DNA of 63,237 nt, filler included, from Collodictyon triciliatum (lineage: Eukaryota): the NCBI GenBank assembly GCA_043381765.1. It is 11 parts of 11 records of this genome, joined end to end, with 100 filler letters (N's around TTAATTAATTAA, not from the genome) between each part and the next. Parts side by side here need not be neighbours in the genome. Positions count along the whole stretch, not along the records: positions 35,807 to 41,669 come from JBHJMP010004881.1; 10 more parts are not named here. One strand, given 5' to 3'. Under the pieces are notes generated by a model. The model was not told the DNA's origin. It worked only from the letters and a program-made list of their open reading frames with translations, and searched no databases. Shown in pieces: positions 14,805-52,600 of the stretch. Positions within the stretch are counted from its first letter, which is position 1; each line of letters begins with the position of its first letter. The position numbers were made by a program, and so were the translations under genes.

Positions 14805-17518
14805 TCATTCGTTCAACCCAAACATCATATTTCCGGCAGAGGGCAAGTAGACAACTTCGCGCGCACGGGTGAGCATCTTTGCGATTTCTGTTGAAATTCC
14901 TATTGATAACCAAAAGATGTAATTAAAACGGAGTCAACAAAGACTTTATCGTGAACCTTCTATTACTTGATTTGGTCGGTCTCCTCTTAAATAGGCACTT
15001 AAAATTAGATATAATCTTTCGAAAATATTTGTGCGAAATCAAACTTAGTCTTTGGAAGGTAACATATTCAGAACCGTGATTTCCCATCGCCTGGATAATC
15101 TAAGGATACCATTTTATTGTTATTTTTGTTTTGGGTTTTTTTGGGTTTTTTTGGGTTTTTTTGGGTTTTTTTGGGTTTTTTTGGGTTTTTTTGGGTTTTT
15201 TTGGGTTTTGGTTTTTTTGGTTTTTTTGGTTTTTTAAGAAAAATAAATTTTGCTGTCAGGAGAGCTCAGATGTCACCAACAAGTAGCCATTAAGAAATGA
15301 AAGTGTATATTAATTTGAGCTGAAAATGGATAGATATCTGTATTTGATAAATACGATCTTTGCTGCTTCGCTTTGTCCTTCAGCACGAATGATTTTTGCC
15401 TTCTGCTCCTGTTCATTCTACAATATATATAATTGACTTTTGGTAATCCGAGAGAACGAAAATATAATGGATGCAACCAAGAAAAAACAGACGCAAGTGT
15501 ACTTCCGATACTGCTTGATAAACACATTAATTATATTTACATATTTCAAAGAATATTGCTGTTACTTTCTACTGAGCAATATCAAAATCTCTGTAGAGGG
15601 TTAGAACATACCTTGGTAACGACGTATTTTAATCTTTCTGCATTTTGTTGTTCTATTTCCCATCAAAGAAAAAATGTTTTATTAAGTGCACAAAGCTAGC
15701 GAATGAAAATTGAATGCAAAAGATGTCTGTATTTTGAGGAAAGGCGTAATCGTAAACATTTGTCAATTATTAATATGTTTCACAATCCCGGTGTTGGCCA
15801 TCATGAGAAGCTCGAACACATGTTGATAAAAGTTTGATTATACCCACCAACTTGTTTGCGTTCCACTGCAGATGCAAAATCAGGTCCAAACTTGAGGTTT
15901 ACCTTGAATTGATTTTTATTTATTAAAAAAAAAATTCAATATCAAAGGTGGAAATGTAATATTATGGGTTTTTAAATCCAAACATATTTATTCGGTTCTG
16001 AGAAAAAGGGAATGTTTTATTTTGAGTTATTTATCATATTTAAATGCAATCGTGAGGAATTATGATTAGAATAAGAAATGATATCTTGTTTGTTTGTTTG
16101 TTTGTTTGTTTGTTTGTTTGTTTGTTTGTTTGTTTGTTTGTTTGTTTGTTTGTTTGTTTGTTTGTTTGTTTGTTTGTTTGTTTGCTTGCTTGCTTGCTTG
16201 CTTGTTTTTACTCGCTAGATAACATTCTGGAAATTTTGTAATTGGAACTTCATGTTATGTTTTTGTAAAAGGGTTACAATGGAAATATCGTCAAAAACGA
16301 GATTGAAGTCTGCAGCACGGCTCGCGAGGTTTTCTCGAATCTGACGAGACACCTGTTCCCTTTGTGTAATTAGCTCTCCTGCGTCATATTGGGCCACAAT
16401 CATCTTGATAACCTCATTCCCTATGGAGGGAATGATTTTCTCCTGGTAGTCAGGACCGAACTCCTGATGAAGCTTAGGGATTTTAGACAGCTGCGGCCTG
16501 AAAAGGATTCTGACTCCGATGGATATGTTTTGGAGATCTAAAATTGTGATGAGGTTTGTCTTTGTTTTCATGCATTTTTTTTGGTTTTTTTAAAAGAAAA
16601 GTTATACAATTAAGAGTGCAGTTAAGAATCAAGTTGCTAGAAATACATCGTTCAGGGGGAAATATTCAAGTTTATCAATTTGGTGAATATTGTAGAAGAT
16701 GGGTGTTTTTCAAGTATGAATTTGCACATATTTAGGGGAGAATATATAAAAAATAAGTAAGGGAAACACATCGTTTTATCAGCACATATCATCTATATGG
16801 GGTACTTATCTCAACTGGAAAGCAACTTATCTTTTTCTAAAAATAAAATACACTCCATGTTATTTGGAAAAACTGTAACGTTGGGAAGTTACCTTTGCTT
16901 CCTGTTTTTGTATCTATCAAATAAGGGCGAGTTCGGACATCGTATGAGTAGTATTTGTGCAACCATGGAATTCGGGCATTAAGACCTTCTTGGCGAATCT
17001 TATCTTGAATACCTCCGTATCTGCTGAATATAACTCCACGATAACCCGGCTCCACTATAATTATCAACCACGTGCATAGATGTGAGAGGATAATTCAAAA
17101 GCAGGAAAGAGTCCACCGGAAAAAAATTTATAGTATGTGATAAACATGAATAGTAATTTTCATTCCTTCATATATTTGTATTCATACTGCAGCTATGAAA
17201 TATGGGTGAGGATTTAATAAAATGAAAAGAAAAGAACAGGCTTTATAATATCATTAAGAGATAGGGGAATGAGATGACCATTTAAAAAAAAAACAGAAAA
17301 AGGACTGTTGTATCGACGTTTTAAACACACAAATATTCCAGCGTTGCTTCACAAAATAAAATAAAAAAGGATTATGTAAACAAACTCTTGTCTGAAGACA
17401 AAGAGAGGACTTTAAAAAGGAAACCAAACTAACCTATGAAGAGACTCCCTTGTGCCAAGGACAGCGCTGTTCCGCTCACAAAGACGATTTGCGACAGACG
17501 AAGGAGGATCTGCTCCAT
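14805..17518 (-). CDS. PHB1: Prohibitin (SPFH/band-7), PHB1-like
   Basis: Exons give MEQILLRL..., VEPGYRGVIFSRYGG, DLQNISIGVRILFRP, IIPSIGNEVIKMIVAQYDAGELITQRE, AVERKQV, IIRAEGQSEAAK, EVVYLPSAGNMMFGLNE*. Confidence 0.9.
16086..16204. repeat. (TTTG)n/(CTTG)n intronic microsatellite
   Basis: Tandem tetramer inside a prohibitin intron. Confidence 0.95.
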
Positions 17519-17912
17519 CTAGAGAAGGTGACCACTTTGTGAGTAAGAGAGCCCACAAGTTTGGGTCTGGCTCAGCCACGCAAAAGTGATGAACAAGACC
17601 ACAATCAAAAATAGAAAGACTATGCCTGAGCAGGCCTCGATGTCGTCTTCTCTCTTTTTCTCTCTTTTTCTCTCTTTTTCTCTCTTTTTCTCTCTTTTTC
17701 TCTCTTTTTCTCTCTTGTTTTTCTTGTTTTTCTTGTTTTTCTTGTTTTTCTTGTTTTTCTTGTTTTTCTTGTTTTTCTTGTTTTTCTTGTTTTTCTTGTT
17801 TTTCTTGTTTTTNNNNNNNNNNNNNNNNNNNNNNNNNNNNNNNNNNNNNNNNNNNNTTAATTAATTAANNNNNNNNNNNNNNNNNNNNNNNNNNNNNNNN
17901 NNNNNNNNNNNN

Positions 17913-20885: not shown

Positions 20886-21214
20886 CAATCACATTTACGC
20901 CTATGCTTTCTGATTATTTTTTTTTGGGAAATACCTCTTGTCCTCTCATGCATTAAAGGTTGATGTCGTGTTGCTCCCATGAACATTGGCTGTCATTTTG
21001 TTTTAAAGGAAATTAGCCACCAGCATAGGATACGATCTTTTAATATCCTTTCATGCTAACAGACATATATTCCATTTTATCTTGGTTGAAAATTTTATCG
21101 TACTGAGGCTTTCTATTAAGAGGCATGGATATTAAATTAAGTAAAAACATGAATTGTTGTTTTAGGGTATGACATAATTTCAATATTTGGTTCAGATCTA
21201 TTATTTTTATTTTG

Positions 21215-21691
21215 NNNNNNNNNNNNNNNNNNNNNNNNNNNNNNNNNNNNNNNNNNNNNNNNNNNNNNNNNNNNNNNNNNNNNNNNNNNNNNNNNNNNNN
21301 NNNNNNNNNNNNNNNNNNNNNNNNNNNNNNNNNNNNNNNNNNNNNNNNNNNNNNNNNNNNNNNNNNNNNNNNNNNNNNNNNNNNNNNNNNNNNNNNNNNN
21401 NNNNNNNNNNNNNNNNNNNNNNNNNNNNNNNNNNNNNNNNNNNNNNNNNNNNNNNNNNNNNNNNNNNNNNNNNNNNNNNNNNNNNNNNNNNNNNNNNNNN
21501 NNNNNNNNNNNNNNNNNNNNNNNNNNNNNNNNNNNNNNNNNNNNNNNNNNNNNNNNNNNNNNNNNNNNNNNNNNNNNNNNNNNNNNNNNNNNNNNNNNNN
21601 NNNNNNNNNNNNNNNNNNNNNNNNNNNNNNNNNNNNNNNNNNNNNNNNNNNNNNNNNNNNNNNNNNNNNNNNNNNNNNNNNNNNNNNNNNN
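21215..21691. other. Internal scaffold gap (N run)
   Basis: 477 N. Confidence 0.99.
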
Positions 21692-21950
21692 TCATCACAT
21701 CGAGCATTCAAAGTTTCTGTGTTGGGCAGGGCGAATGAATCACTTGAAGCAAACATAAGGCAAGCTTTTGCACATACCCGAGTCGCGTGTTAAATAATTG
21801 AATCCCAAATATCGTTCCATATAATGGAATGGGAGCCCAGCCTTCTTTATAGTACCGAAAGAACGAGAGAAAAAGATACGGTCCGATGAGTTTTTGTATT
21901 GATTTGTGATTTTATTAGAGCTGTTCTCGATCTGTGGACTGGGCATTAAA

Positions 21951-23564: not shown

Positions 23565-23900
23565 TTGATGTTGTTACGACGCTCAAACCGCCTCCCTTTT
23601 GTTTTTGTTTTTGTTTTGATTTTTTGTTTTTGTTTTTATTTTTATTATTTTTTATTTTTGTTTTAATGTTTGTTTGTTTTTGTTTTTTTTTTGTCTGTTT
23701 GTTTGTCTGTTTGTTTGTCTGTTTGTTTGTTTTGTTTTGTTTTGTTTTGTTTTGTTTTGTTTTGTTTTGTTTTGTTTNNNNNNNNNNNNNNNNNNNNNNN
23801 NNNNNNNNNNNNNNNNNNNNNTTAATTAATTAANNNNNNNNNNNNNNNNNNNNNNNNNNNNNNNNNNNNNNNNNNNNAAAAAAAATAAGATTTAAAACAC

Positions 23901-23932
<32 letters not shown>

Positions 23933-24001
23933 AAAGGAAAAAAAAAAAAAGAAAAGAAAAGAGAAAGAAAAAAACCAAGAAACGAAAAGAAAAGAACTAA
24001 C

Positions 24002-27000
24002 CTATCCATCTTATGGCTACTAAGCGAGCGTAAGCGGTCTTTAGCAGCTTTATAACCGCCCTTCAATGACAACTCGAAGTAGTAAGTAGCCATGGTTGGA
24101 TTCACTTCCACAAAAACTCCCTCGTCATAAGACAACCCAACCAAATAAGCCGCCCTCGGGTGTTTCGGCTTACTCACAATCAAGTCATCAGCAAGTTCGC
24201 GCAGAACCTGCAGTGCCCCCTGATTTCCCGCTTTCACTCCATCCCATAGGCGAGTGTGTGGCTCCTCGGCTTCCGGGTTGGCCATTATGGCCCATCTGTA
24301 CGCCTTCAACTTGTCTACAGGCTTTGTCCAGCCATTCTCGTAGCATTCCGACATTAACTTTGCTGCGGCAGGGTATCTAATCTTATCAAATCTCTTCAAC
24401 TTGGATAGATTTTCAAGCTCTTCGAACGCATCTACACTCCCCTTTTGAAGCATTTCCCGCAACTCATCAAAAAGACTGATATTTTTGCCCTCGTGTATCA
24501 TGGACACTAGTGTCATGAGGTATTGTTTGGATGATGTTGTTGATGGTGATGAGGATGCATGGGTGGTAGAGGTGTCTTTTGGTGGCTCTTTGAGTAATTC
24601 TGATAGAGACTTTGCGGCCGATGGATTGATGGCCTGATTGAAATCTGTCTTTGTTGCAAAACTAATTGCTAGGCTGATTGCTTCCTTGTGTCCGCTCTTT
24701 GCCATACTCACAATATCTTCCATAGATTCTTTCAATCCAAGTTCCACTGATTTTTCCAATAGACTCAGAGCCTCAGCAGGATTGGCTGGTGAATAAAGTC
24801 CTTTGTAGCGACAGTAGGATATTTCCCGAAGAGCACGCCTTTGGATTTTCGGTTTATCTGCATTTCTGGATGCATGCAAAATCAAATTATAAACGTCCTC
24901 ATCCAAGGCTTCCAATGTCTTTCGAATGTATATCCAGAGCTCGCTGGACTCTGGTTCTGCGATACACCGAATCTTGATGGTATTTGTTAGAGACTTTTCT
25001 GTACCCCAGCCATTCTCATAGCATCGTGCAAGTGTTATCAAAGCTAACCTCTGGAATTCATTTGGCTCGGTGCGACCCTGATGCGCCACAGCGAAGATGA
25101 TACCAAAAGCTTCAGACTTGCCTGCTTTTGCTTCGGCCTCGGCTTCCTCTAATCCAAGAGAGTTTTGATTTTGTACGAGCGACCGAATTCTCTGCATTTT
25201 TGTAAAGTTTGAGCTATTCATCCCCACAAAAAATCCATTTTGTTCTATGGTTCCCAACCGAGTTTCGATATCAGGCTCAATATAACAGTAGTGATTTGTG
25301 CCTACAACTTCTTTCAAGTAGAATGCAGACAGTTGAAACCCTTTCCTGAGCAATGCCGAAAGGAAACGAACAGCCTCTGGAGATCCCATGACCGCAGCTC
25401 TTCCGAAGTAATGGGTGGCCTCTTCTAAATCCACAATACCGATCCAGCCTTCATAGTATCCTCTTCCTAACTCCAACTGCAATTGTCGAGATATTGTTGT
25501 TTCTAGCTTCTTCTCACCAGAGAGGCTAAGCAATCTGTCCAATGCAGTTTTATTTCCCTCTTGGCAGAGTTGCACCAGCTCCCCAAGTGCATGTAGCGAC
25601 CCTCTCTTTACAAACTCGCTCAGTTTCCTCACTCCCTCGTCAACGTTTTTTTGAACAAACCAACCTTTAAAATAGCATTTGCACAGTAAAATTTCTGCAA
25701 GATATATATGGGATGTTGTTGATGTCGACCTGGAAAGTACATCACGAATTGCAGAGTACGCTCCTCTATTTTGGTTCTCCAAGAGTTCGGATAATATAGT
25801 AATACCAAATCCATCATCACTTTCTATAAGGCTCTTACCCACTACAACCCAATCTGAGTCGCTAAGAATCGCCTCCTGTTTAAACGCCGGGTCTGAGGCA
25901 ATAGACTTACATAGTGATAGATATTTAAGTCGGCCGTTTTTTTCTTTCACCGAAATTACTCTTTTCAGTATCTGAATTGCACTTTCTTCATGACACATGG
26001 TGCGCTCCACGAGGTTTTCCCATGCGCCCTTTTGATTTTTTGCAAGTATCATCTCAAAGTATGTTGTGGCTTTTACAAAGTCAGGAGAAGTTCCTATTCC
26101 CTGTTCAAATATAGTCATCAACATTTCCGCCAAATCGATATATTTGTAGTCCTCACAAGAGTATCTCTGATTCACGTAATACTCTAAAAACTCAACAACG
26201 TAAAATCTGCCTTCCTCCACATATTTTTTGAATACCTCTTTAAGATTTTGACTATGTATTGGAATTTGAGATAAAAATAAAGCAGCTTTTTCCAAACTTT
26301 CTGGAGTAGGTGATGTGCCCATCAAAGCTTCCAACATCATCCACAAACTCTCTTCTAGAGTATTCTGATGTTTCATTAGATTATATAGGACCGCTCTTTT
26401 TAGTATCCTCACCACACATTCTTCTTTTTTCTTCATTAATCTTTTTAAATTAGGAAAGAAGACACTATCCTCTTTAGAAAGATATTCGTAAATTGACGCA
26501 GCAATATCCAAGTTCTGAGTTACACCGACTCCATACTCGTACATTTCAGCCAAGTACGGAAGAATCGGCGAATTGGATGAATCCTTCTTCCACATCTCTA
26601 AAAATTCAATTTTGTCTTTGTTCATTATATTTGCGATTGGGTTTGGGGTAAGAGGGTGCCTTTTAAGCCCTCTACTACATTCTAAAAGCAAACCTGCACG
26701 GACTAAGTTCTGTAAAATGCTATTCCACTTGAAACGCTTCGCTGATCTATCATTTCTTGTATAGAAAAGCGTCATATTTGAAAATATGTCTGCTAGATTA
26801 TGTCGTATTGGTCCTGAGCTGATTTCATAGAAATGTTCATCAATTGCACACCCTCCTTGATTCTTGATAAACTTGACATCATCTTCACTTTTGAACGTGC
26901 AATCAAAAAATGATGATTCGGAGAAGCAATTATGACGTTGCCGTGGTCGATGAAGCCCGTCCAGGGTTATATTTGGGGTGCTATCCTCAAATTTTTTGCA

Positions 27001-29540
27001 ATCTTCATCAGAGGTAAAAATTGCTACGAGTTCGGTACCATTGTATAGGTTATTTTCCTTCAAATAGAGATAGTTTCTTCTTATTGGGTTAGAGAAGCGC
27101 CCAGTCGTCGACGAGCATATTGATATAGAACAGTCTGAGAGTATAAAGAGTAAACTTGGGTCGCGATTCGATGATTTGCAATAGATGACAGATACTATCT
27201 CGCATGCAGATTGAAATACTCCTACAGTTGCCTCTGTCAATGGATTCCATACGTAAATTGTTCCCTCGGTTGTGTGAATCACTTGGCAATTGATATTATC
27301 CTTTATGTATTCAACAAGGAAAATTGTGTTTGTTGAACGAGGTGTCGTTCTCCACACCATATCGCCACCCCATTCACCATAGAAAAATGGATGACCAATC
27401 TCATACCTCGGTAGGTTCCCAATGTAGCTTGACTCCATGTCGCACTTGAAAAAGAAGCAATCACCGAAATCAGCACCAATCATAAAACAATTCTTGAAAG
27501 TACAATTGAAGAATTTAATGTGTCGTAAACTTCCGTTTGAGATTATGGAATTCTCGAAAACAACTTGATGAAACTCTTGATGGTCTATAGTCGAACCAGA
27601 TAAGCATAAGATAGATAGAGCATTACCTGCAGCCACGGACATTGAGGGACAATTTTCAGCAGTTGTTATGATTTCAAGAATTTTTTCTTTTGAAGTCTTA
27701 CAATTTAACACCTTATTTGCTATCTTGTCGATTTGGTATTTTTCTAGTGGTTCAGATATGAACTTTAGCAAATTTTCGCTTTGTGCGCTTGTAGAAGATT
27801 TTCTCATCATCGCTAGATTGTATTTTGGATCTGTAATGTGTTTGAAATCTAGGAGGTTTTTTTCATCAGGGGTAGCGTTTTTCTTGGATGAAAGTAAGCG
27901 AGCATGTTTGCCAATGCGATAGGTACCCCCTCTAAATAAGTGTGTTCCATTAGAGTTTGCCTGGCTGAGAATTGAAACGGTGCCTTTCCATAGATCACCA
28001 GGGGTAAATTTTGCTGATTGGATTAACTCATTCAAAATATCTACAAGAAGGGGGCTCAAGTCTATCTTTTTCACATGCATATCCAATCTTCTAAGTATGT
28101 TATCTAAGAACTCAATTGCTGATGCAAAGAGTTCTTCGCTATGTTTTCTTCGTAAGATTTCGATCCGAAAGAGCTCTGAAGCCCACACAATTGGAGGATA
28201 TTCTGCATCAGAATCGATAAGCTTGATAAAATACTCTTCGAAATCCATAAATAATCCGTTCGTCAATAAAATGTGTGCATCAATTAGTTGATAGACCCAC
28301 GCTGGACTTTCCACAGGACATCTGGACAGGGTGTTTCTCATATTATTAAGAAGAATGAAAACGGACCGCTCGAAAGAAAAGTTCTCTAACAGCATCAAAC
28401 CCAATGTTAACTCTTGGCTAGCATCGTACGTGTCATGATCGATTTCTTGGTTTCCCATTCTACGAAGGGCATATATCTGAATTTGTAGTAAAGAATTTGA
28501 GAAAGGGTCTAGAGTCATCTCAAGTTCCCTACTTAGCGAGTCAGACAATTGAATTGCTCGCTTCGATATGTGAAAAGGGAATTTAATGCACGAAAAAGCT
28601 CCCAATAAAAATATCTTTGCCATGGGAAACATGTAATGCTTGTTAGTAAGATGCCATCTTGGTGGGTTTTGGTTTCCAAAATCGATAACTTTTTCAATGA
28701 CACTACTTAGGTTACAAATCGTGCACTGCTTGCGTATAAACTTTGGTAAAATACTTGAAAGATTTTGAAGTGTTTTGTGCTCAAATAGCACACTCTCACA
28801 TTGTTTCACAATTGCACCCATAAAGTCTGTGGCGTGTATTGGATTTTCAACAAAATCTACACACATCAACAAATCAATGGACTTTGTGTCTACACCCAAT
28901 TTTTGTTCTGTTGTCATTCTTTTCGTCCTAATTTCATTGGATATGCGTAAAAGTTCGACAGGATCACTGGGCATGATCAATTGAGCTACACTCGCAACTA
29001 CATTGCGTCTGAAATGCCTGCTACTTGTGGGTGGATAATATAGATTTGTCAAGACTGCTTGCGGTGCGTTGTGGAAAACATGATTCATGAAAGCAATGAT
29101 AGTTGGGGTAGAATCTTCGTCGACAATAGGATCTCTCTGGTCAAACTTGAGTGAGTTCAAAACGTCTTTTACATCGCCTTCATTATTACCGTCTTCATTT
29201 ATCATGAAATCGGGTGGTTCATGAACCGCAGCAGGTAATCGGATTAGTCGGCCATGGCATTCTCCCTCGTTTTGTTCTCCAAAATCAATATGAAGCTCAA
29301 AATTAGTCGATATATATTCTGATATTGCTTCATAGCTCATCTCATACCAATGCCGGTCTAAAGGAGGCTCAATTGGCTCGGTTAACACAATATCCCAGGA
29401 CTCAAAAGTCTCATTAAAATAATATAGCGTAATTTCATCGTCATTTAGGACAAAAGCGATATGCCTGGTTGTATTGGTGCGTATTGGGACTTCATACATT
29501 CGGAAAAGGTATATCAGCGAATCAGTTTGCAAACCGATTT
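24002..29540 (-). CDS. Very large protein (single ~5.5-kb exon) with helical/TPR-like region, pentapeptide repeats, beta-rich segment and multiple Sel1-like repeats; partial
   Basis: AAGNALSILCLSG...FENSIISNGSLRHIKFFNCTFKNCFMIGADFGDCFF (pentapeptide); LAEMYEYGVGVTQN, LGRGYYEGW, LARCYENGWGTEKS, VGLSYDEGVFVEVNPTMATYYFELS (Sel1). Confidence 0.8.
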
Positions 29541-32500
29541 CTAAGTAAATAATGATAAATAAGAATAAGAATAAAACCGAATTGAATTGAATTGAATTAT
29601 GACTTAGTATGCGGAAAACTCTAATATCAGGGTTAATCTCAAGTATGTGTTTTATGTGTTTTATGTGTTTTATGTGTTTTATGTGTTTTATGTGTTTTAT
29701 GTGTTTTATGTGTTTTATGTGTTTTATGTGTTTTATGTGTTTNNNNNNNNNNNNNNNNNNNNNNNNNNNNNNNNNNNNNNNNNNNNTTAATTAATTAANN
29801 NNNNNNNNNNNNNNNNNNNNNNNNNNNNNNNNNNNNNNNNNNACTCATATATTTTAATATTTTCACTTTATTACAAATTTATTTCAATTTTTTGATTTCT
29901 TCAGCACCACACCCATGGCACAAACCTCTCAAGTTTTGCTACGAGAAAGAGATTGGGATGTGAGCTTTCCTCCCTTTGTAAATCCTCGACAATCATAAAT
30001 AAAGACTCAAACCGTAACTTCTTTCCTTTTAGGTATGCATCGAATACCCATGACAGGTTTGGTTGAGACTATCTCAACGATTAGGAGTGTATTTGGCCGA
30101 GTGAAATTGTAGGGTTTTTTTTCATCTAAATGTGTTCGTTGAACTAATAGCATTAAAAATAAATATGAAAAGTATATATTTAGTGTATTCTCTTTACTTC
30201 CATGCAAATCAGTGGCCTTTTTTATTATCAAAAACCAATATAATGTTAAATTTGTACTCTTGATTTAGTTCATGCGGATGCACTGCGCATGTGTCTGGAC
30301 TTTCTCAATAGATATCATCCAATCGGTCGAAGCGATGATTTTTGATAATCAGGGCGAACTCCTATGCAAAGTGTGTGTTCACGATGTAAATTCATCAGCA
30401 GCCAAAAAAGTCTGCAAAGCGTGTTTTCTGCTCGATAGCCTTATCGCGTGCCTCCAAAACTTGCCGTTGGAAAGACTAAGAAATGGGTTTGCCTTTCCCA
30501 TTTTCTTTTGTTGTAAATAAGTGGCACTTTCATTTCTTCGCTTTTACTGTCATTTTTTTCCGATCAGAACTTATTTGACACCAAATACTATCAGCAGTAT
30601 TCTGAGCAATATATTTCTCCTTTTTCCGAGTCGCAAGGATTGGCGCATCTGTCGTTTTTTAATTACATCAGAACAGTCATTTACCGAGTACAGTGCAGAG
30701 TCATCAATGAAGAGGCTCGATGCCAAACACAAGATAAACATCAAGTTTTTAGAATGTAGATTAGAACTTTAAAACCCCCGATATCAAACGAATAATTACT
30801 TTTTCGAATGATTTTGATTCTATTATCCTTGAACTTCGATATTTACTCGCAAGAGGAGATGATTATTTTTTTTATTTGCTTGGCTAATCTATATTAGTGA
30901 TGCTTTGAGTTCATTGATCGATTGATAGACGCTGCAATATTCGGTCGCAGCGATGAGCAACCGTTTCACAAAGAAACACAACATAATCCTAGCAACTGGA
31001 AACATGTATCGCATATCCGCATTCAGTCGACGTCATAAGCTGCGAAAGGTGGCGAGAAATAGGCACTTGTGCATCGGGGATTGCGCTCCGAGACAAGAAA
31101 GAATGAGAAAAATAAAATATTTATCTTGCATGAAAGGTATAAGAAAACAGAAAAATTGTATTCTCTTGCACATCGACGATGAATGATGTGCGGCAGATTG
31201 GATTTTGGACGATGCACTTTTCTCACTTTCATGGCAGAGAAACTTTTGCAAGATGCACCTGGCCATGCAAACAACATGCGGATGAGGCTGGAAAATATCA
31301 TCTAATCCAGTGCTTGGAAAAAAAAATTAGCTCGATGGAATCAAAGAGGCGTCTTGTATGGATATAATTGCCGAGTATATGACAAAACAGTTGGGCACTT
31401 GGAGATGAATAAATATCGACAGTTCAATTAAGCTTCCGATTCTGATTGTAACATATAAATATATATTGGTAACAACTGCAGACTTACTTTGATTTTTAGA
31501 GGGCTCTGACGGCGATGGCGCTGTATGGGTCGGGCGTGTATCCTTATCGGCGTGTATGTTACTATTATTTGAACAAGAAAGATGGTTTCATTCTTTTCCT
31601 GATTGTTTTTAAGTCATTTACACACAAAGCACCCAAACAATGGCTTCGAAGTTATGTTTTTCTGGTCCAAACGAGAATATGTATATCTCTTCATGCGCTT
31701 TATTTAAAGGTAGGTTGTATATAGTGTTCGTACATGAAGGAATAATCAAAAGAGTTCAATTATATACGATTACATTAGAAGGTGTCCCTCTTATTCGGCT
31801 AGAGGACGAAAAATGTGCTGCAGATGGTGTGGTGGACATTTACTTCAATGTAAATCGCTTCTCCACTAGTTAAGCATGCGACCGATTGGGTAGGAATGCC
31901 TTTTTGGATGATTTCCTTGTTGTACTGACCATCACCTCCGCTAAATATGAATAAAGAAGGATCGTTTTCATATTTGCTTGTTTTCAAAACATGTTCTCAC
32001 AAACTTATACTGACAGCGACCTTAAATATAGAAGAGAATATACCTTACAGTTTTATTATTTAGCAGCAGTATACATAAAAGAAAATAAATTACGCTTCAC
32101 AACAACTAATATCATGCATCCGATATTGTAGAGCGCTGGATATCAAGCAAAAGCTCATGGTTACTTGTAGCCGAATTGTGTTTAACAATCTCTAGAGGTT
32201 TTTTTTTTCAATATTTACTCATTTCAGTCTGAAAAAAATATTGAAACAGGAATTATGACCATGTTAGTCTCTTTTTCAAGTTCAGATTGTCTGATTTTTT
32301 CTATTTGTCAAATTTTCCTAATTACCTGGGCGATGATTTCATTTTCATTCGTGTATGAAAAAATCATGATTGGTAGTCTATTGAATGAGCAAACTAACCC
32401 ACTGCATCATTTCCTATTTCTCCACTGGAAACAATAAAGGCAACTCGTTGAAGCTTTTCCCACTGTATGACAGCATCTCGATTCAGTGCGCAAAATATAT

Positions 32501-34399: not shown

Positions 34400-35706
34400 C
34401 GACCAAAAACCTTAACGCATAGTGCCTTGAATGAAAGACGAGCCCACCCAACAAAGTCTCCCAGCGTCAAGGTTAGGATTTTCTCAGGCACATATAGCCC
34501 GCAGTCTACTGTGTAAATCCAGTGAACACAAATTCAAACAAAAGCTAACGCCTACCGTGTGAAAAAATACTCGACTTTACTCATTCTTCTCCACAAATAC
34601 TCGACAAGGAGTCTTTTTTGAACATTCATGGACACATAAGCTTTTCGCACTTGATGGGAAATACAGGCAAAGATGAAGGAGCTTGGCACATGTAGAGACC
34701 CGCTCAATAGTGTCGCAATCCAGAACACCTGTGCAAGGAAGGCTGTCTGCAAGTCTGTCTGAGCGAACGGTATTTTTGCACGGGGTTGAGCAAGTAGTAT
34801 ACAACAATTTGTTTTTGAAACCAAAAAAGCACGTGCAAAAATCGAATAGCCCCAGAGAAGCAAACTTCAGCAACGACTCGCTCTATCTCTCACCTGAGTC
34901 CCAAGAGACAGGGACTGCATCAGGAACACCCCAGAGCAGCGTCAGCTTCACACCGCAATTCCCAAGATTCGAGGGCGCCCCTAACAAAGCAAACTACCAG
35001 CATCCTGTAACTCCCATGCGTATTGCTCGCGCAAGCCCTAGCCCAAAAAGAGCGAGCACAGAGCTGACAGCCTCGCCGGAAAACACACAACTTCCCACCG
35101 CAGAGGCAGTAGCGTCACCCGCACAACACAGAATGAAACTATCAACGCCAAAATCCCGAAGGATGCGTGCTGGGGTTCCAATAATAACTTCCGAAACAAA
35201 TACAACAACCATAGCCACAGAAACACTCACAACCACCACGACCGAGTCAACACAGATATCCGCAAACACAACTGAACACAACGAGAGCGCTGCTGCTCTC
35301 ACGGAGGGTTTCCCTCCACCCAGTAATAACAGACTATGCGTTTCGGCGTTCTGTCATGGAACGCTAGGGGATTAACGACCCCCACAGGCGGAAATAGGTT
35401 TACAAGACAGCTCTTTTCACCCACGCGGATATCATCTGTCATTAAGAGACGTGACAGAGCCCTGAGACCCAATCTACTGACTTCGGGTGGAAGGGCCCTC
35501 AGCTATGGTCACCATCATTATCACCATCACAACACAAACATGCCGGCGTAGCAATCCTGTGCAAAAGGTGGATTGCTAAGCTAAAGCCCATCTTCAAAGT
35601 CATTATTCCCGGCCGCGCCATAAGCATGGATATCCAGATGGATGGGAAAACAACAAGGATAATCACTTGCTATATGTCACTCCAAACGGCTGGCCTCCAA
35701 ACAAGA
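34400..35706 (+). mobile_element. Decayed non-LTR retrotransposon (L1/Tx1-like): ORF1 remnant overlapping the start of ORF2 with an APE endonuclease
   Basis: ORF2 from 35336 MRFGVLSWNARGL, then after a frameshift ADIICH*ET*...WKGPQLWS...HAGVAIL...IIPGRAISMDI...IITCY (APE motifs SWNxRGL, DIIxLQET, GVAIL, GR). Higher GC, intronless, truncated by scaffold end; 5' boundary approximate. Confidence 0.8.
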
Positions 35707-36646
35707 NNNNNNNNNNNNNNNNNNNNNNNNNNNNNNNNNNNNNNNNNNNNTTAATTAATTAANNNNNNNNNNNNNNNNNNNNNNNNNNNNNNNNNNNNNN
35801 NNNNNNTTCTTCTTTTTTCTTCTTTTTTCTTCTTTTTTCTTCTTTTTTCTTCTTTTTTCTTCTTTTTTCTTCTTTTTTCTTCTTTTTTCTTCTTTTTTCT
35901 TCTTTTCTTATTTTTCTTCTTTTTCTTTTTCTTCGGTCTCATTCAGCCTGTAAATCGATAAACTTCATTACAAAGGCTGTGGCGAACTTGGTTTTATCCC
36001 TTTCAAGACATAACAATTTTTATACAACAAAAGTGTGCACATTTATAGCAGTTTATTACACAGGAAACCATCGAATTAAATCTGGATTGACGAAAGCAAG
36101 AGCTTTGATGAATCCAAGAAGCAACTTGAATAATATAATAGTATGATTGGTATATAATGAGGTTAAAAAATATTTAATAATATCAATCTATTCACGTAAT
36201 CAATTTATATTTTATTTTCCATTCTGTAATATTAATTCAAAAATTCAAGATTACAAACAAGCCCTTTCCTTGGCCCAGACAGAACCCAACCTATCATCAT
36301 GCCACCAAACATTCATTTCAAAAAAGCATACTATCCACACTTGCGGCGGTAATCATGTTGTTTGGGGCCGATATGATGATTTTCAGTCGCAATGGCTATA
36401 CGGCCGTCATTTCAAACTCGCCGAATCGGCTCTCAGGGATTAGTCTCAAATCACTTATAAAAAAAAACTTGGTGTGTTTGTTTGCCACAATGCGCACATT
36501 TTGAAAGTCTCGGTAGATGCTTAATTTTACATAAATTGATTTTATGTAGTTTTTTTTTTTTATTACATCGACTGATTGTTTAAAATTTTATTAAAATTGA
36601 AAACTCGGTAGTTTACTATAGGAAAAAGTAAAACAAAGACTTTCAG

Positions 36647-38470
36647 ATGAGGAAAAGAAAACGTCTCGAGTCTGAGAATCTAAAGTCGATTGTAAAGAAT
36701 GCGGATGACTATGACAAAATGAACGATATGGTTCTATTGTGTCATAATTTGGTTACCGACACTTATCTGTTTGCAACATGTTACATATTAAAAGCACAGC
36801 AACACCCAACAATCGATAAAAAGTTTTTTTTTTTTTTTTTTTTACGCTTTAAAGACAGTCGGAATAGTTTCACAAGGTATCCGCAAGATTAAAAAAAAAA
36901 ACCAGATATATGAGTAAAGACATGATGACTTTTTTATCTCTATGATTTTCGATTCCTTTTGTCTCGAGAAGAAAGCTTTCCGTTGGTTGGACTGTCTCAT
37001 GTACTACCGTACTTGGCAAAGCAAATGTTAACAGCTTATCAATATAACATTAAGGAACATTTTGTAAAGAGGTTACTGCGCTTTATAAATCAAACAGTTC
37101 CTAAAGATGAGAATATTACGGAAGCAATTGAAAAGGCAGAGTTACGAAAGTTAAAAAGACTATCTCAAAGAATCTCAAAATACCAGAACAATATAAACAA
37201 TTGGGCTACAACGCATTTGCATCGTATCATTCCCAGCAATATTGTGAAAGGTATCGAATATGACGCCAAAGTCAATCCAAATAAGTACATTCCATGTCTG
37301 ATTTACATGTATCGCATTTTTGAGGACATTGGAGCCAAACTGTTTGAATCAATCTCTATAAGAACTAACAATATAACATGTCATATTACTCTAGATACTG
37401 CATGTTTGATAGATATATTAGTATCAAGTGGAAAAACATCATTAATGAAGAATATATCAGGATGCAAAGAGACCCTATGAGATGATTTTGAAATGAAGAA
37501 GAGTGTCTTTCATCGAAGAGACTATAATTTTTAATACATGATACAAACAGACGGCTTAGCAGTGTCATTATTGTTCGAAAAGAAAGGTATTCCAAACTCA
37601 AGATTCCAATTTAATCAAAAAAAAACCCCCCCAAGAATATGTTTATATAGATGAACTTTCCGAAGGGCAGTTATCTTTATTAGCGAAAAAAATATAATAG
37701 TTTAATGGATGCACGCAACTTTAATTTGGTTTGCATGGTGGATGAGACGGTAAGAAATTACATTACACGGCACACCAAAGAGGACATGATAGCAAATCTC
37801 TTAAAAATCACAAAATACTCTTGTGCGAGAAAAAAAAAGAAAAGTACAATTCTTCAGGGATATACATGGTAACAGATTTACGAAGTGCTGTTTCTTTTGG
37901 TCGCATGACTTTTGAAGAGAATCAGTTGTTTGAGACATCAAGAGTATCTTTAATCGATTTAGAGACAGAACTAAGTAAACATAATTCATCCACGGTCGAT
38001 TATGAAAAAAATTCTAAAATATGTATCTATGAAATCAAAATACCAGATAGAATTATCCAGATTTTATGAACAAGTAACTTTTCGAAAGATGGGATGGAGA
38101 CAGTATGTTAATACAAAAAGGAAGTGAACAGTTGATTATGGACCGAATCGAAAAGACATTTGGCAAGGATGTTGTACTTGCGTATGGAGACTGGAGCAGA
38201 AATTGTCAGATGAAACATTTTATGGCAACAATCGGAAGAGGATTACGAAAAATACTATCCAAACGCGTTGAGATATTTAGTGTGAATGAATTTAGAACCT
38301 CCAAGATGTGTTGCAATTGCGAAAAGGAACTGGAATACATGCAACTGAAAGGAAATTCAAAAAAAAGGTGTATAAATGTCTCATGTGAGAAGAATGCAAT
38401 CGTTCAGAAAGCAAACAAAGTGCATTTTCGATAAGGAACTTTAACAGCGCTAAAATATACTCAAGAAAGT
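36647..38470 (+). pseudogene. Fanzor1 (eukaryotic TnpB-like RuvC nuclease), disrupted by frameshifts and stops
   Basis: Intronless fragments: LPYLAKQMLTAYQYNIKEHFVKRLLRFIN, YDAKVNP..., HITLDTACL, YMIQTDGLAVSLLF (~37537), RuvC-I-like MDARNFNLVCMVD (~37705), FRKMGWRQY, VLAYGDWS, VNEFRTSKMCCNC (RuvC-II + Zn finger), CLM*EEC, RNFNSAK (RuvC-III, D>N). Confidence 0.88.
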
Positions 38471-38522
38471 TCTTTTAATCCTTCAAAAACTGCATACACC
38501 TTCCTCTAAAAAACATACTTTT

Positions 38523-38636
38523 GGGTCTTTCCTGGAAGCCTTCACCACTACACAACCTTTTTGTGAAAAATGTGGTGAGACCTTGGATACTAGCACACCA
38601 GTCTCGCCAGTCGAAAGATTGGTTTACCCCTTCTAG
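38523..38636 (+). ncRNA. Putative Fanzor omega-RNA scaffold / element right end
   Basis: Nested stems just 3' of the Fanzor ORF: TCACCAC(38542)/GTGGTGA(38572) enclosing CACAA/TTGTG; GAGAC able to pair with GTCTC(38601) or GTCTT(38525); CCAGTC-GAAA-GATTGG(38607-38622); GGGT/ACCC closing. Confidence 0.45.
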
Positions 38637-38812
38637 AAAACAAAATATATTTGCACCAAACATGAGTGCAGCAGAAAGTCTAAACAGTTTAACAAACTAC
38701 AAAGTAGTTCCGGCCTTGTTTTATTCTTTCCTCCTCCCTCCTTCTCTCCTTCCTCACGAGACAAAAGCACAGCCCGACCCAAAGACCAACGAGCCACCCG
38801 CAGACACGGCCC

Positions 38813-39433
38813 ATGAGCGACCCGCAACTGATCAAAGGCTCCCTGCGCCCCGACGGTTCTGTGCGGAAGGACATCCGCGTGCGAGCAGGTTACGTGCCTC
38901 CAGACGAAGTCCAGCGCTACGAAAGCAAAGGCAAGCAGCACGCACGCATTCTCGAGCAGTTCCGCCACACGCCCGTTGGCTATCCCGTCCAGGACGACTC
39001 CACGGGCCCGCGCGCCCCTCAGCCAAAGACCAATGCCGATGTGAAGCGCGAAGCCGCAAAAGCCGCAAAAGCCGCAAAAGCCCAGCCCGGCCCTTGTGCG
39101 CAGTCGCCGAGTCAAAGCCACGAAGCGGAGTCGAAGCCAAAGCCGAAGCCGAAGCCAAAGCCAACGCCAACGTCCAGTCCTGCTTCGAACCCCACCCAAA
39201 AGCCGGCTCCGGTCCAGGCGGGGGAAAGCAAAGAGGAGGCCCACGAAGACAGGGAACTAGACCCGGCGAAGCGAGCCCGTGCGCTCAAGAAGAAGCTTCG
39301 GCAGATTGAAGGCCTGGAGCAACTGCAGGAAAAGGGCACGGCTCTGGATGCGGCCCAGGCCGAGAAGCTTGCGAGGAAGCGGGATGTGGAGCTGGAGCTG
39401 GAGAAGCTCAGTCTTGAAGAAGGCGGCGTTTAG
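38813..39433 (+). CDS. PYM1: Partner of Y14 and Mago (PYM/WIBG), EJC disassembly factor
   Basis: N-terminal Mago-binding motif IKGSLRPDGSVRKDIRVRAGYVPPDEVQRY; C-terminal KRARALKKKLRQIEGL...QAEKLARK. Confidence 0.93.
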   Translation: MSDPQLIKGSLRPDGSVRKDIRVRAGYVPPDEVQRYESKGKQHARILEQFRHTPVGYPVQDDSTGPRAPQPKTNADVKREAAKAAKAAKAQPGPCAQSPSQSHEAESKPKPKPKPKPTPTSSPASNPTQKPAPVQAGESKEEAHEDRELDPAKRARALKKKLRQIEGLEQLQEKGTALDAAQAEKLARKRDVELELEKLSLEEGGV

Positions 39434-49599: not shown

Positions 49600-49674
<75 letters not shown>

Positions 49675-52600
49675 NNNNNNNNNNNNNNNNNNNNNNNNNN
49701 NNNNNNNNNNNNNNNNNNNNNNNNNNNNNNNNNNNNNNNNNNNNNNNNNNNNNNNNNNNNNNNNNNNNNNNNNNNNNNNNNNNNNNNNNNNNNNNNNNNN
49801 NNNNNNNNNNNNNNNNNNNNNNNNNNNNNNNNNNNNNNNNNNNNNNNNNNNNNNNNNNNNNNNNNNNNNNNNNNNNNNNNNNNNNNNNNNNNNNNNNNNN
49901 NNNNNNNNNNNNNNNNNNNNNNNNNNNNNNNNNNNNNNNNNNNNNNNNNNNNNNNNNNNNNNNNNNNNNNNNNNNNNNNNNNNNNNNNNNNNNNNNNNNN
50001 NNNNNNNNNNNNNNNNNNNNNNNNNNNNNNNNNNNNNNNNNNNNNNNNNNNNNNNNNNNNNNNNNNNNNNNNNNNNNNNNNNNNNNNNNNNNNNNNNNNN
50101 NNNNNNNNNNNNNNNNNNNNNNNNNNNNNNNNNNNNNNNNNNNNNNNNNNNNNNNNNNNNNNNNNNNNNNNNNNNNNNNNNNNNNNNNNNNNNNNNNNNN
50201 NNNNNNNNNNNNNNNNNNNNNNNNNNNNNNNNNNNNNNNNNNNNNNNNNNNNNNNNNNNNNNNNNNNNNNNNNNNNNNNNNNNNNNNNNNNNNNNNNNNN
50301 NNNNNNNNNNNNNNNNNNNNNNNNNNNNNNNNNNNNNNNNNNNNNNNNNNNNNNNNNNNNNNNNNNNNNNNNNNNNNNNNNNNNNNNNNNNNNNNNNNNN
50401 NNNNNNNNNNNNNNNNNNNNNNNNNNNNNNNNNNNNNNNNNNNNNNNNNNNNNNNNNNNNNNNNNNNNNNNNNNNNNNNNNNNNNNNNNNNNNNNNNNNN
50501 NNNNNNNNNNNNNNNNNNNNNNNNNNNNNNNNNNNNNNNNNNNNNNNNNNNNNNNNNNNNNNTAATAATAATGATAATGATAATAATAATGATAATAATA
50601 ATGATAATAATAATGATAATAATAATGATAATAATAATGATAATAATAATGATAATGATAATGATAATAATAATGATAATAATAATAATAATGATAATGA
50701 TAATAATAATAATGATAATGATAATAATAATAATGATAATGATGATGATGCTCAACAAAATGAAATTGGATACAGGCTTTTTTCATCTGCTCATTTTACT
50801 TCGCTTTGATTATCGCATCAATCGTATTACTTTGCTATGATAGCACTCTTGGCGGGGATAATGAAAAATTGTTAGTATAAATTATGATATACACAACAAT
50901 TTTTTTTGAAGCTTACAATAACTTCTGTACGCAAACTCTATATCGAATTAAGTAAAAAAAAAATAATAATTACATGCGCACACATTATTTTTATTTTTCT
51001 TCTGGCATCTGCCAATATTTGTTTTATTTTGATCCAAAGCATATACAACCCTTACTTTTTGTTGCTAAATGTGGATTAACACATCATGAACTAATGGGTT
51101 AGTTTTTGGGCTGAAACAACCTTTGCGGTATTCTTTACAATCGATTTATTTGCCCGTGTCTTTTGTGCTCCGAATCCAAAGAAGTATATACTGTGTAAGT
51201 AAAATTGATCCAATTATTTGTCATGCTATCTCCAAACCGATAGCTTATTTTCGATAATAAATGAGTTTTTCAGGTGAACTTATATTTACATTTTGTCATG
51301 TATAATACCAATAATACCAATAATAATAAATGTGGGTGATTGTAGCATTCTTTGTGTTAATCGATCTTGCGTCCATTCTTCCGTTCTACATGGATTTTTT
51401 CCTTTCAAATGTAAGAGTATTACGCATAGCTCTCTTATACGAAGATATTTTACAAAAAAATAATATAAAATAAATAATCCTATGATTTGAACCCTTTTCA
51501 GTCGTATGCCAAGTCGATTAACTCGCACCTTTCTTGATTATTTTCTTTTGAATATTATGTCTTGTAGGATATTAAGGTTTTGCTTATTCTTCGTGTGGCT
51601 CGCCTTGTTCGAATATTCCGTATCATCAAGCTGTCCAAATTCTACTCTAGTTTTTTGGTTTGTATTACGTATTTTTATTGAACATTAATGATATTCAATC
51701 CTAATAATTTTGTAAATTTCTCTATCAGGGCTTTGGTAGGGCTACAAACATTTTTCCGAAATTCATGAATAAAAAATAATGCAATTATATTTACATACAC
51801 CAGGCTGTTATCAATACTGTCCAAAAGTGCATCGATTCACTCTATTTGCTCTTGTTTCTACTCTTCATCGAAGTAATTCTTTTCTCGTCCATCCTTTATT
51901 ATGTGGAACGTGGTGAATTTGAAAATGGGGAATGGATAATGGATGGTCGCAGGTAAAAAAAACAACAACTGATTATATATACCTGAAATAAATTAAAATG
52001 AACATATCATGAAATATGATCGGTCATACCCAAACTTATCATCGTAATACACATCACCAAATGAACTATATTGAAATTTTTCTGTCGCACATTTTCTATA
52101 TTTATGACCACTTCTCCGGCTTCCATTATGAAAACAACTTATCCCATAGTATCCCCCCTTCTTAGCACAATTCTAATCATTGAAAAAAATAATTAGGAGT
52201 GAGTTTCAAAGTATTCCTGACACCGCATGGTGGGCGATTGTGACTTTTACAACGGTGGGATATGGTAAACTCAAAATCGTAAATAAGTTACCTTCATTAG
52301 CTGCTTATATCCTTTGTATATTCTTATCACAGGTGATAAATATCCCGTAACAGCACTCGGGAAAGTGGTCGTTGGAATAGCATCAATTTTCGGTGTTATG
52401 GCAAGCATTTGGCTTTCTACACTAATATATATATAGCTTTGGGACTCTCGATCAATATGCGTTCTCAGCAAACTATCTTTCTTTATCTTTCCGTCTCATG
52501 AAATTGTAAAGCATTATATTTAACCTGCGGTTTTGGTTTAGTGTCATTTTTTTTAACAATAAATCACCATGTAACAGAGTGTTGCATTTCCCATCACAAT

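What the first reader, a model, noticed from the sequence alone, without database searches (positions are those of the whole stretch)
36647..38470. Near-full-length Fanzor1 fossil (eukaryotic RNA-guided nuclease)
Seen: ~1.8 kb, intronless, with colinear Fanzor1 motifs from N-terminus to RuvC-III: NIKEHF, IQTDGLAVSLLF, D-ARN in place of DPG, YGDWS, EFRTSKMCCNC, CLM*EEC (TGA at 38386), RNFNSAK (Asp>Asn at 38437). Several frameshifts fall at homopolymer runs. Established: Fanzors are TnpB-derived OMEGA nucleases carried by eukaryotic transposons and giant viruses. Inference: this copy is dead, but it marks a family whose intact members or reconstructed consensus could be a new programmable nuclease; my recollection of the motif style suggests giant-virus Fanzor1 relatives.
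Basis: partly seen in the sequence, partly recalled or inferred. Interest (0 to 1): 0.72.

Follow-up and report, generated by a model that had tools for sequence, protein, structure and literature searches.

The report
Dead Fanzor1 nuclease gene relic
This is a broken, non-functional copy of a Fanzor1 RNA-guided nuclease gene left by a jumping gene of a type common in giant viruses; it is a real but ordinary relic.

Summary
Window 36647-38633 (+) is one intronless stretch colinear with an intact 648-aa metagenomic protein, P0002 (58% identity, 364 of 625 aligned residues). Its pieces match solved Fanzor1 structures.

It is dead. It has about 12 frameshifts, 3 in-frame stops and a 14-codon N-terminal deletion. 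One stop replaces a zinc-finger Cys, the DPG motif reads DAR, and the RuvC-III Asp is Asn.

A guide-RNA-scaffold-like remnant probably follows at 38511-38642. That support is weak: 13.8 bits, against a 12.3-bit hit elsewhere in the window.

No transposase, terminal inverted repeats or second copy occur in the window. The flanking genes are cellular.

Relatives lie in 3.3-kb TIR-bounded elements with a DDE_3 (Tc1/mariner-IS630-type) transposase on giant-virus-like contigs and giant-virus MAGs.

Contigs of two coded organisms hold many diverged copies. Every contig covering the broken catalytic codon reads Asp there.

Verdict: a pseudogene of a known kind. Mariner-borne Fanzor1 has been described since 2013, and this scan has met it before in giant-virus genomes.

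The parts
36647..38633 (+). Fanzor1 pseudogene. It runs from the ATG (MRKRKR..., a basic N-terminus) to the last sense codon before the stop at 38634-38636. About 12 frameshifts, 3 in-frame stops and a 14-codon N-terminal deletion. GC 34%.
   Evidence: tblastn and frameshift-aware alignment to P0002; matches to solved Fanzor1 structures; composition
36929..37480 (+). Longest open stretch (183 aa), the N-terminal half of Fanzor1 including NIKEHF. It hides a compensated pair of frameshifts at about 37151 and 37195.
   Evidence: Match to Guillardia Fanzor1 9cer, E 4.3e-7; 475 library representatives; relative P0010 follows the other frame between the two shifts
37705..37731 (+). RuvC-I motif MDARNFNLV. 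The Asp codon GAT at 37708-37710 is kept. Pro-Gly-Lys of the family reads Ala-Arg-Asn.
   Evidence: Alignment to P0002; D364 and P365 are invariant in 18 relatives; all contigs covering 37714 and 37719 in runs X2, X7 and X10 read another letter
38078..38434 (+). Open 118-aa stretch with YGDWS, the RuvC-II Glu (GAA at 38288-38290 in NEFRTSK) and the first CxxC of the zinc finger.
   Evidence: Match to Parasitella Fanzor1 9cf0, E 4.6e-10, and Spizellomyces Fanzor1 8gkh, E 5e-5; weak Pfam Cas12f1-like_TNB, E 0.0074, below the cut-off
37478..37480 (+). In-frame TGA, aligned to the Trp that is invariant in the family (W288 of P0002).
37532..37534 (+). In-frame TAA, aligned to Asn 307 of P0002.
38386..38388 (+). 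In-frame TGA, aligned to a zinc-finger Cys (CLICKEC in P0002, CLM*EEC here).
38437..38439 (+). AAC (Asn) codon at the RuvC-III catalytic Asp position (RNFNSA here, RDFNSA in relatives).
   Evidence: D604 is invariant in 18 relatives; all 9 contigs of X7 and all 5 of X10 that cover 38437 read G there
38511..38642 (+). Probable decayed guide-RNA (omegaRNA) scaffold and right end of the element. It overlaps the end of the frame.
   Evidence: A covariance model built from the 3' ends of 7 relatives hits here over its full length: 13.8 bits, E 0.0013 in 7 kb, E 0.012 in the whole window. The fold z-score is -2.36. Weak: a 12.3-bit hit also lies at 26430-26565.
36824..36843 (+). Run of 20 T inside the frame. 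It reads FFFFFF where relatives have FFL or FIL.
   Evidence: contigs seem cut there

Best explanation
Window 36647-38642 is the decayed remnant of a Fanzor1-carrying DNA transposon. It lies in the AT-rich spacer about 170 bp upstream of a cellular gene that encodes a Mago-binding (PYM-like) protein.

The ancestral element (inferred from relatives) encoded a nuclease of about 630-650 aa. That nuclease has a basic N-terminus, a split RuvC D-E-D site and a zinc finger. Its guide RNA is transcribed from the 3' end of the gene and the right transposon end. In characterised Fanzor1 proteins this RNA directs double-strand DNA cleavage. Many relatives also carry a divergently oriented DDE_3 (Tc1/mariner-IS630-type) transposase, enclosed by inverted repeats of about 32 nt.

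Shown for the window copy: the frame is broken about 12 times, three stops interrupt it, one zinc-finger Cys and the third catalytic Asp are lost, and no transposase or left end remains. The copy can make neither a nuclease nor move by itself. It is junk DNA that records a past invasion by a transposon lineage otherwise seen mostly in giant viruses.
For: - Colinearity with intact P0002 from residue 1 to 642 of 648, 58% identity (364 of 625).
- Pieces match solved Fanzor1 structures: E 4.6e-10, 5e-5 and 4.3e-7. P0002 as a whole matches Guillardia, Parasitella and Spizellomyces Fanzor1 at 2e-28, 3e-24 and 4e-23.
- Lesions: 12 frameshifts and 3 stops, with codon detail. D364, E555 and D604 are invariant in 18 relatives. 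The window keeps the first two and reads Asn at the third.
- Relatives' context: 26 of 60 fetched loci have a divergent DDE_3 transposase within 2.5 kb upstream, 12 of 27 metagenome loci and 14 of 33 IMG/VR giant-virus loci. L002, L003 and L004 are about 3.3-kb units bounded by 32-38-nt inverted repeats, 92-100% complementary. L003 and L004 are flanked by a capping enzyme fused to an N7-methyltransferase, ribonucleotide reductase small chain, HSP70 and SNF2 helicases.
- Guide-RNA scaffold in relatives: 44 pairs, 92.5% of cells paired, 21 pairs with changes on both sides, 0 of 500 shuffles as good, and 41-49% paired when slid.
- The window's best model hit lies exactly at the 3' end of the fossil.
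- Flanking window genes are cellular: Mago-bind, HlyIII, Myb, LRR and Sel1.
- Multi-copy family: 332 contig pieces of run X7 and 336 of X10 lie on 36600-38600 at 80-99% likeness. At the places listed in the table of differences, mostly 4-19 contigs of X7 or X10 carry the other letter.
Against: - Seven of the 12 frameshifts lie at homopolymer runs, where assemblies err, so the true number of lesions may be lower. No reads of the source organism could be laid. One search lists only small shares (0.10 or less).
- The guide-RNA remnant is weakly supported. It scores 13.8 bits, while a 12.3-bit hit inside an unrelated Sel1-repeat frame (26430-26565) shows what chance gives in this window. The protein-level likeness of the tail to relatives was not significant.
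- The element type is inferred from relatives at 41-47% identity. The closest intact relative (P0002) lies on a 2.6-kb contig whose DNA could not be fetched.
- An assembly gap (35706-35807) lies 840 bp upstream and could hide a left end or a transposase.
- The local Pfam copy gives no significant hit to the pieces or to P0002.
Confidence: 0.9

Rival explanations
1. The stretch is a leftover of integrated giant-virus DNA (an endogenous viral element). The Fanzor1 gene arrived with a viral genome fragment and did not spread as a transposon in the host.
For: - The nearest Atlas clusters are 92-100% viral, with Nucleocytoviricota the commonest phylum.
- Relatives lie on giant-virus MAG contigs and on giant-virus-like contigs.
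- The fossil has 34% GC against 63% in the neighbouring host gene.
- Bao and Jurka describe Fanzor elements in host contigs that are really integrated virus (PMC3627910, passages read).
Against: - No viral gene was found beside it. The scanned frames are cellular (Mago-bind, HlyIII, Myb, LRR, Sel1) or have no hit.
- The AT-rich composition equals that of the host's own spacers: 31% GC upstream, and 20-46% GC across the 2-kb bins of the window.
- Hundreds of diverged contig pieces in two organisms fit a dispersed repeat family.
Confidence: 0.1
2. The gene is alive. The breaks are assembly errors at homopolymers, or the organism reads stops or frameshifts through.
For: - Seven of the 12 frameshifts lie at homopolymers.
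- One TGA aligns with Trp, as in codes that read TGA as Trp.
Against: - Five frameshifts are not at runs of 5 or more.
- The other TGA aligns with Cys and the TAA with Asn, so no single recoding fits.
- A 14-codon deletion, DPG reading DAR and Asp reading Asn are substitutions or deletions, not homopolymer slips.
- The window's branch in the tree is long.
Confidence: 0.03
3. The relic has been put to use by the host, for example as part of the promoter of the PYM-like gene 170 bp downstream or as a source of a small RNA.
For: It lies close to the gene start at 38815. A folded region lies at 38505-38650, z-score -2.36.
Against: There is no conservation or expression evidence. No listed run is on record as RNA. 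The fold score is modest, with 4 of 200 shuffles as good.
Confidence: 0.03

Closest known systems
Mariner-type Fanzor1 elements of giant viruses and protists (PGv-1, PUl-1, and the Fanzor-only PUl-4); Bao and Jurka 2013, PMC3627910 (passages read)
   Same: Fanzor1 travels with a Tc1/mariner-type DDE transposase inside TIR-bounded units, and transposase-less derivatives exist. Relatives here show the same plan. Viruses were already proposed there as spreaders.
   Different: The window copy has no transposase, TIR or TA duplication left. Sequence likeness to PGv-1 itself was not tested, because its sequence is not held here.
Characterised Fanzor1 nucleases with solved structures: Spizellomyces punctatus (8gkh), Guillardia theta (9cer), Parasitella parasitica (9cf0)
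   Same: Significant sequence matches over the N-terminal half and over RuvC-II plus the zinc finger. The guide RNA lies at the 3' end of the gene (PMC10432273 and PMC10530073, passages read).
   Different: These are distant (E 1e-23 to 1e-28 for the intact relative P0002). The window copy is broken. P0002 and the window share an extra stretch of about 33 aa between RuvC-I and RuvC-II that P0003, P0004 and P0012 lack.
Fanzor1c clade of Jiang et al. [quoted passage not shown]
   Same: Mariner/Tc1 association of the relatives; a compact size of about 600-650 aa; a basic N-terminus like the reported nuclear localization signals.
   Different: Clade assignment was not tested.
Bacterial TnpB of IS200/IS605 and IS607 with omegaRNA
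   Same: Split RuvC plus zinc finger, and a guide RNA from the transposon's 3' end.
   Different: The eukaryote- and virus-type N-terminal half (PF26935, DUF8286), the DDE transposase partner and the TIRs differ from TnpA-type elements.

Membership tests
Fanzor1 (by descent) | Significant sequence similarity to experimentally characterised Fanzor1 proteins along the whole length | tested here: met
   Pieces match 9cf0 at 4.6e-10, 8gkh at 5e-5 and 9cer at 4.3e-7. The stretch is colinear with P0002, which matches the three Fanzor1 structures at 2e-28 to 4e-23.
Fanzor1 (as a working nuclease) | Uninterrupted reading frame | tested here: not met
   About 12 frameshifts and 3 in-frame stops.
Fanzor1 (as a working nuclease) | RuvC catalytic triad Asp-Glu-Asp | tested here: not met
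   Asp (37708-37710) and Glu (38288-38290) are kept. The third position reads Asn (38437-38439). D364, E555 and D604 are invariant in 18 relatives.
Fanzor1 (as a working nuclease) | Zinc finger (two Cys pairs) between RuvC-II and RuvC-III | tested here: not met
   The first pair, CCNC, is kept. In the second, a Cys position is TGA at 38386-38388.
Fanzor1 (as a working nuclease) | Guide RNA scaffold encoded at the 3' end of the gene and the transposon end | tested here: inconclusive
   Relatives have a covarying structure. The window hit at 38511-38642 scores 13.8 bits, E 0.012 over the whole window, with a 12.3-bit hit elsewhere.
Fanzor1 (as a working nuclease) | RNA-guided DNA cleavage | not testable with these tools
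   This needs biochemistry. It is not expected from a broken gene.
Fanzor1 | N-terminal domain PF26935 (DUF8286) of this branch | tested here: inconclusive
   Seven of the 9 relatives carry it by precomputed annotation, and 74-95% of members do in the four nearest Atlas clusters. The local Pfam copy gave no hit for P0002, P0003 or P0007.
Tc1/mariner-IS630-type Fanzor1 transposon | DDE_3 transposase gene beside Fanzor1 | tested here: not met
   tblastn of two relatives' transposases against the window gave nothing below E 2.3. tblastx of the 840 bp upstream against the 60 loci gave nothing. In relatives, 26 of 60 loci have it.
Tc1/mariner-IS630-type Fanzor1 transposon | Terminal inverted repeats and TA target duplication | tested here: not met
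   No inverted repeat brackets the fossil. The relatives' TIR is absent from the window. The putative right end has no inverted copy in the window. An assembly gap at 35706-35807 limits the test.
Endogenous giant-virus element | Neighbouring genes of viral type | tested here: not met
   Of 10 window frames scanned, 6 hit cellular families (Myb, LRR, Sel1, Mago-bind, HlyIII) and 4 had no hit.

The most novel reading that the evidence does not exclude
The fossil is one of many diverged copies of a giant-virus-type mariner/Fanzor1 lineage. On this reading the lineage crossed from Nucleocytoviricota into a freshwater unicellular eukaryote and multiplied in its chromosomes. Its still-intact close relatives (the 648-aa P0002 type, with an extra stretch of about 33 aa between RuvC-I and RuvC-II) form an untested compact subfamily of RNA-guided nucleases.
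Probability: 0.4. Interest if true: 0.4.

Novelty: new member of a known kind. Interest (0 to 1): 0.25.

Why it matters
It matters little by itself, since a dead transposon gene does nothing. Its value is as a marker.

- It shows that a Fanzor1 lineage otherwise seen mainly in giant viruses also sits, decayed, among ordinary cellular genes of a eukaryote, and is multi-copy in two related sequencing runs. This fits the long-standing idea that viruses carry Fanzor between eukaryotes (PMC3627910).
- Intact natural relatives exist, but the family is already catalogued. The prospect of a new genome-editing tool is therefore no greater than for hundreds of other Fanzor1 genes.

Tried and rejected
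- Whole-genome search for other copies: no genome is held for this window.
- Giant-virus loci with P0002 alone: none found.
- The 18-sequence alignment was too diverse for locus search. Smaller alignments worked.
- Rfam on 35800-39000: no match.
- Local Pfam: only a sub-threshold Cas12f1-like_TNB hit for the C-terminal piece, and no hit for intact relatives.
- Transposase remnant: none.
- TIR search: two AT-rich 14-17-nt matches were judged chance. The relatives' TIR is absent. No inverted copy of the putative right end was found.
- TIRs of transposase-less relatives L009, L011, L012 and L013: none clear.
- Protein-level likeness of the window's tail (EKCGETLDTS against EKVGQSVDFT, seen by eye) was not significant by BLASTP.
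- Sequencing runs: all 12 holders have small shares (0.10 or less), and no RNA holder is listed. Nothing can therefore be said on expression. Runs X7 and X10 are only guessed to be RNA.
- Freshwater metagenome runs X1 and X2 each hold one short contig identical to the window (211 and 176 nt). That is too little to name a habitat.
- Cluster look-up gave no organism names.
- Earlier scan notes by place and by sequence: nothing.
- A TGA=Trp code was considered and rejected, because the second TGA aligns with Cys.

Full report
**What is there**

A search with the 118-aa open stretch 38078-38434 found 9 longer relatives among 97 candidates. Among them was an intact 648-aa metagenomic protein, P0002.

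tblastn of P0002 against the whole window gives four colinear matches over 36647-38451 in three frames, with a joint E of 4e-136. The 8 other matches have E of 0.1 or worse, so the window holds a single copy.

A frameshift-aware alignment gives these figures:
- It covers P0002 to residue 642 of 648, with 364 of 625 aligned residues identical (58%).
- There are 12 frame changes, at about 36797, 36906, 36934, 37151, 37195, 37610, 37695, 37747, 38010, 38122, 38366 and 38452.
- There are three in-frame stops: TGA at 37478, TAA at 37532 and TGA at 38386.
- 14 codons are missing near the N-terminus.

The shifts at 37151 and 37195 compensate each other, which is why 36929-37480 stays open. The close partial relative P0010 (73% identical) follows the other frame between them.

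Seven of the 12 shifts lie at homopolymer runs of 5-11 bases.

**Family**

The open pieces match solved Fanzor1 proteins:
- Parasitella parasitica (9cf0), E 4.6e-10, and Spizellomyces punctatus (8gkh), E 5e-5, for the RuvC-II and zinc-finger piece.
- Guillardia theta (9cer), E 4.3e-7, for the N-terminal piece.

P0002 as a whole matches the three at 2e-28, 3e-24 and 4e-23. The local Pfam copy gives only a sub-threshold Cas12f1-like_TNB hit (E 0.0074) and nothing for intact relatives. Seven of the 9 relatives carry PF26935 by precomputed annotation.

A full scan of 1.84 billion representatives with the 183-aa piece found 475 proteins at E <= 1e-3, 91 at <= 1e-10 and 2 at <= 1e-30. Most full-length ones are 600-800 aa. 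In an alignment of 18 of them, D364, E555 and D604 (P0002 numbering) are invariant.

The window compares as follows:
- It keeps the first Asp (GAT at 37708-37710), but DPGK reads DARN.
- It keeps the Glu (GAA at 38288-38290).
- It reads Asn (AAC at 38437-38439) at the third catalytic position.
- It has TGA where the zinc finger has a Cys.

The stretch therefore descends from Fanzor1 but fails every test of a working one.

**Relatives and their context**

Locus searches fetched 27 metagenome loci at 31-54% identity to P0002 in the best segment, 41-47% for the 17 best. They also fetched 33 loci on IMG/VR contigs, most of them named as giant-virus MAGs, for a more distant branch.

On L003 (a 254-kb contig) and L004 (173 kb), a 634-aa Fanzor1 gene is preceded by a divergent 343-346-aa DDE_3 transposase. 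The L004 transposase also has an HTH_28 domain. The L004 unit lies among a capping enzyme fused to an N7-methyltransferase and SNF2-type helicases, and the L003 unit among ribonucleotide reductase small chain and HSP70. This gene set and gene density are typical of giant viruses.

In L002, L003 and L004 the pair is enclosed by inverted repeats of 38, 32 and 33 nt, 92-100% complementary and about 3.25 kb apart.

Across all loci, 26 of 60 have such a transposase within 2.5 kb upstream on the other strand: 12 of 27 metagenome loci and 14 of 33 viral loci. Fifteen loci have under 1.2 kb upstream and mostly cannot be judged. Several with enough flank lack the transposase, so transposase-less forms exist.

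The Atlas places P0002 next to four clusters (score 0.99) whose members with a record are 92-100% viral, with Nucleocytoviricota the commonest phylum.

In a FastTree of 123 sequences over 611 columns, the window groups with P0001, P0002 and P0011 (support 1.0), on a long branch. That group lies inside a 29-leaf clade (support 0.967) that holds 14 tree leaves of metagenome loci, L002-L004 among them. Nineteen of the 21 IMG/VR sequences lie elsewhere in the tree.

Rows left out of the tree:
- Representatives shorter than 560 aa or longer than 900 aa.
- Partial loci L019-L024, L026, L027, L043, L045, L048, L049, L051-L053 and L057-L060.
- L016 and L054, which have no open frame.

The tree is midpoint-rooted and most leaves carry no label, so it gives no direction of transfer.

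**Guide RNA**

The 3' ends of 7 relatives fold into a shared structure that spans the end of the gene and the right inverted repeat. It has 44 pairs, with 92.5% of cells paired and 21 pairs changed on both sides. None of 500 shuffles does as well, and 41-49% of cells pair when the partners are slid. This agrees with what is in print for Fanzor guide RNAs (PMC10432273 and PMC10530073, passages read).

A covariance model of this structure hits the window over its full length at 38511-38642 (+). The score is 13.8 bits, with E 0.0013 in 7 kb and 0.012 in the whole window. That is exactly where the scaffold should lie.

A 12.3-bit hit inside an unrelated Sel1-repeat frame (26430-26565, minus strand) shows that such scores occur by chance here. 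The fold of 38505-38650 is only modestly better than shuffles (z -2.36, 4 of 200 as good). BLASTP does not support the tail likeness seen by eye. I rate the remnant as probable, not shown.

**What is missing in the window**

- No transposase remnant.
- No inverted repeats around the fossil.
- No copy of the relatives' repeat.
- No inverted copy of the putative right end.
- No Rfam match.

An assembly gap at 35706-35807 lies 840 bp upstream and limits these tests.

The surroundings are cellular. A Mago-binding (PYM-like) gene starts at 38815 and has 63% GC against 34% for the fossil. The window also holds HlyIII, Myb, LRR and Sel1-repeat genes.

**Other copies**

No run holds more than a tenth of the stretch's sampled words. 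Laying four runs showed 332 contig pieces of run X7 and 336 of X10 on 36600-38600.
- By likeness, X7 has 22, 63, 146 and 101 pieces at 99+, 95-99, 90-95 and under 90. X10 has 17, 78, 132 and 109.
- At the places listed in the table of differences, mostly 4-19 contigs of X7 or X10 carry the other letter. The family is therefore multi-copy and diverged in those two coded organisms.
- All 9 contigs of X7 and all 5 of X10 that cover 38437 read G, which gives an Asp codon.
- All contigs that cover 37714 and 37719 differ from the window in the DARN codons.
- Many contigs lack one base at 36930, 38005 and 38120, or have one more at 37748, beside four of the window's frameshifts.
- Several contigs carry 30-39 extra bases at 36679-36688, where the window lacks 14 codons.

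These lesions are thus private to this copy or to a subset of copies. The close protein fragment P0015 (85% identical) begins with an out-of-frame reading of the same N-terminus, so it too comes from a decayed copy.

**Comparison with what is known**

Fanzor1 genes in mariner elements of giant viruses and protists, Fanzor-only derivatives and virus-mediated spread were described in 2013 (PMC3627910, passages read). RNA-guided cleavage, N-terminal nuclear localization signals and a Mariner/Tc1 association of clade Fanzor1c were reported in 2023 (PMC10432273 and PMC10530073, passages read). Yoon et al. describe the rearranged RuvC-II glutamate next to the zinc finger (PMC10711439, one passage read).

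Earlier notes of this scan describe the same kind of element several times in giant-virus genomes. None concerns this genome or this sequence.

**Verdict**

This is a real, well-delimited Fanzor1 pseudogene of a known kind. What remains open is whether the source genome still holds live copies and whether the lineage came from a virus. Neither can be settled without the assembly.

Noticed in passing
window 35330-35703 (+): Two short frames (WNARGL..., GVAIL...GR...) look by eye like the endonuclease domain of a LINE retrotransposon. They stop at the assembly gap 35706-35807. Pfam gave no hit at E <= 0.001. The resemblance is recalled, not tested further.
   Followed up: partly
window 26430-26565 (-): Second-best hit of the guide-RNA model (12.3 bits, E 0.033), inside the long Sel1-repeat frame. 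Taken as chance.
   Followed up: no
window 23830-29790 (-): Uninterrupted 1986-codon frame encoding a Sel1-repeat protein (Pfam Sel1, E 3.8e-20). That is unusually long for an intronless gene in this genome.
   Followed up: no
window 38815-39433 (+): GC-rich (63%) gene for a Mago-binding, PYM-like protein. It starts about 170 bp after the end of the fossil.
   Followed up: partly
window 17412-17900, 21137-21700, 35706-35807, 49670-50560: Runs of N (assembly gaps) flanked by long microsatellites and Lys/Glu-rich low-complexity frames. The assembly is fragmentary around repeats.
   Followed up: no
L002 6588-9912; L003 8637-11952; L004 8627-11949: Complete units of about 3.3 kb, with a DDE_3 transposase and a 634-aa Fanzor1 between 32-38-nt inverted repeats. 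The Fanzor1 stop lies about 15 nt before the right repeat.
   Followed up: yes
L025 6422-7441 and 12618-13628; L002 1085-2035: Further DDE_3 transposase copies near the Fanzor1 gene: two flank it in L025, and a 35%-identical one lies 5 kb upstream in L002.
   Followed up: no
P0002 residues about 409-441; window about 37850-37950: P0002 and the window share a stretch of about 33 aa between RuvC-I and RuvC-II that P0003, P0004 and P0012 lack.
   Followed up: no
runs X1 and X2 on window 38088-38298 and 37097-37272: Two freshwater-metagenome runs each hold one short contig identical to the window copy (211 and 176 nt, no differences).
   Followed up: no
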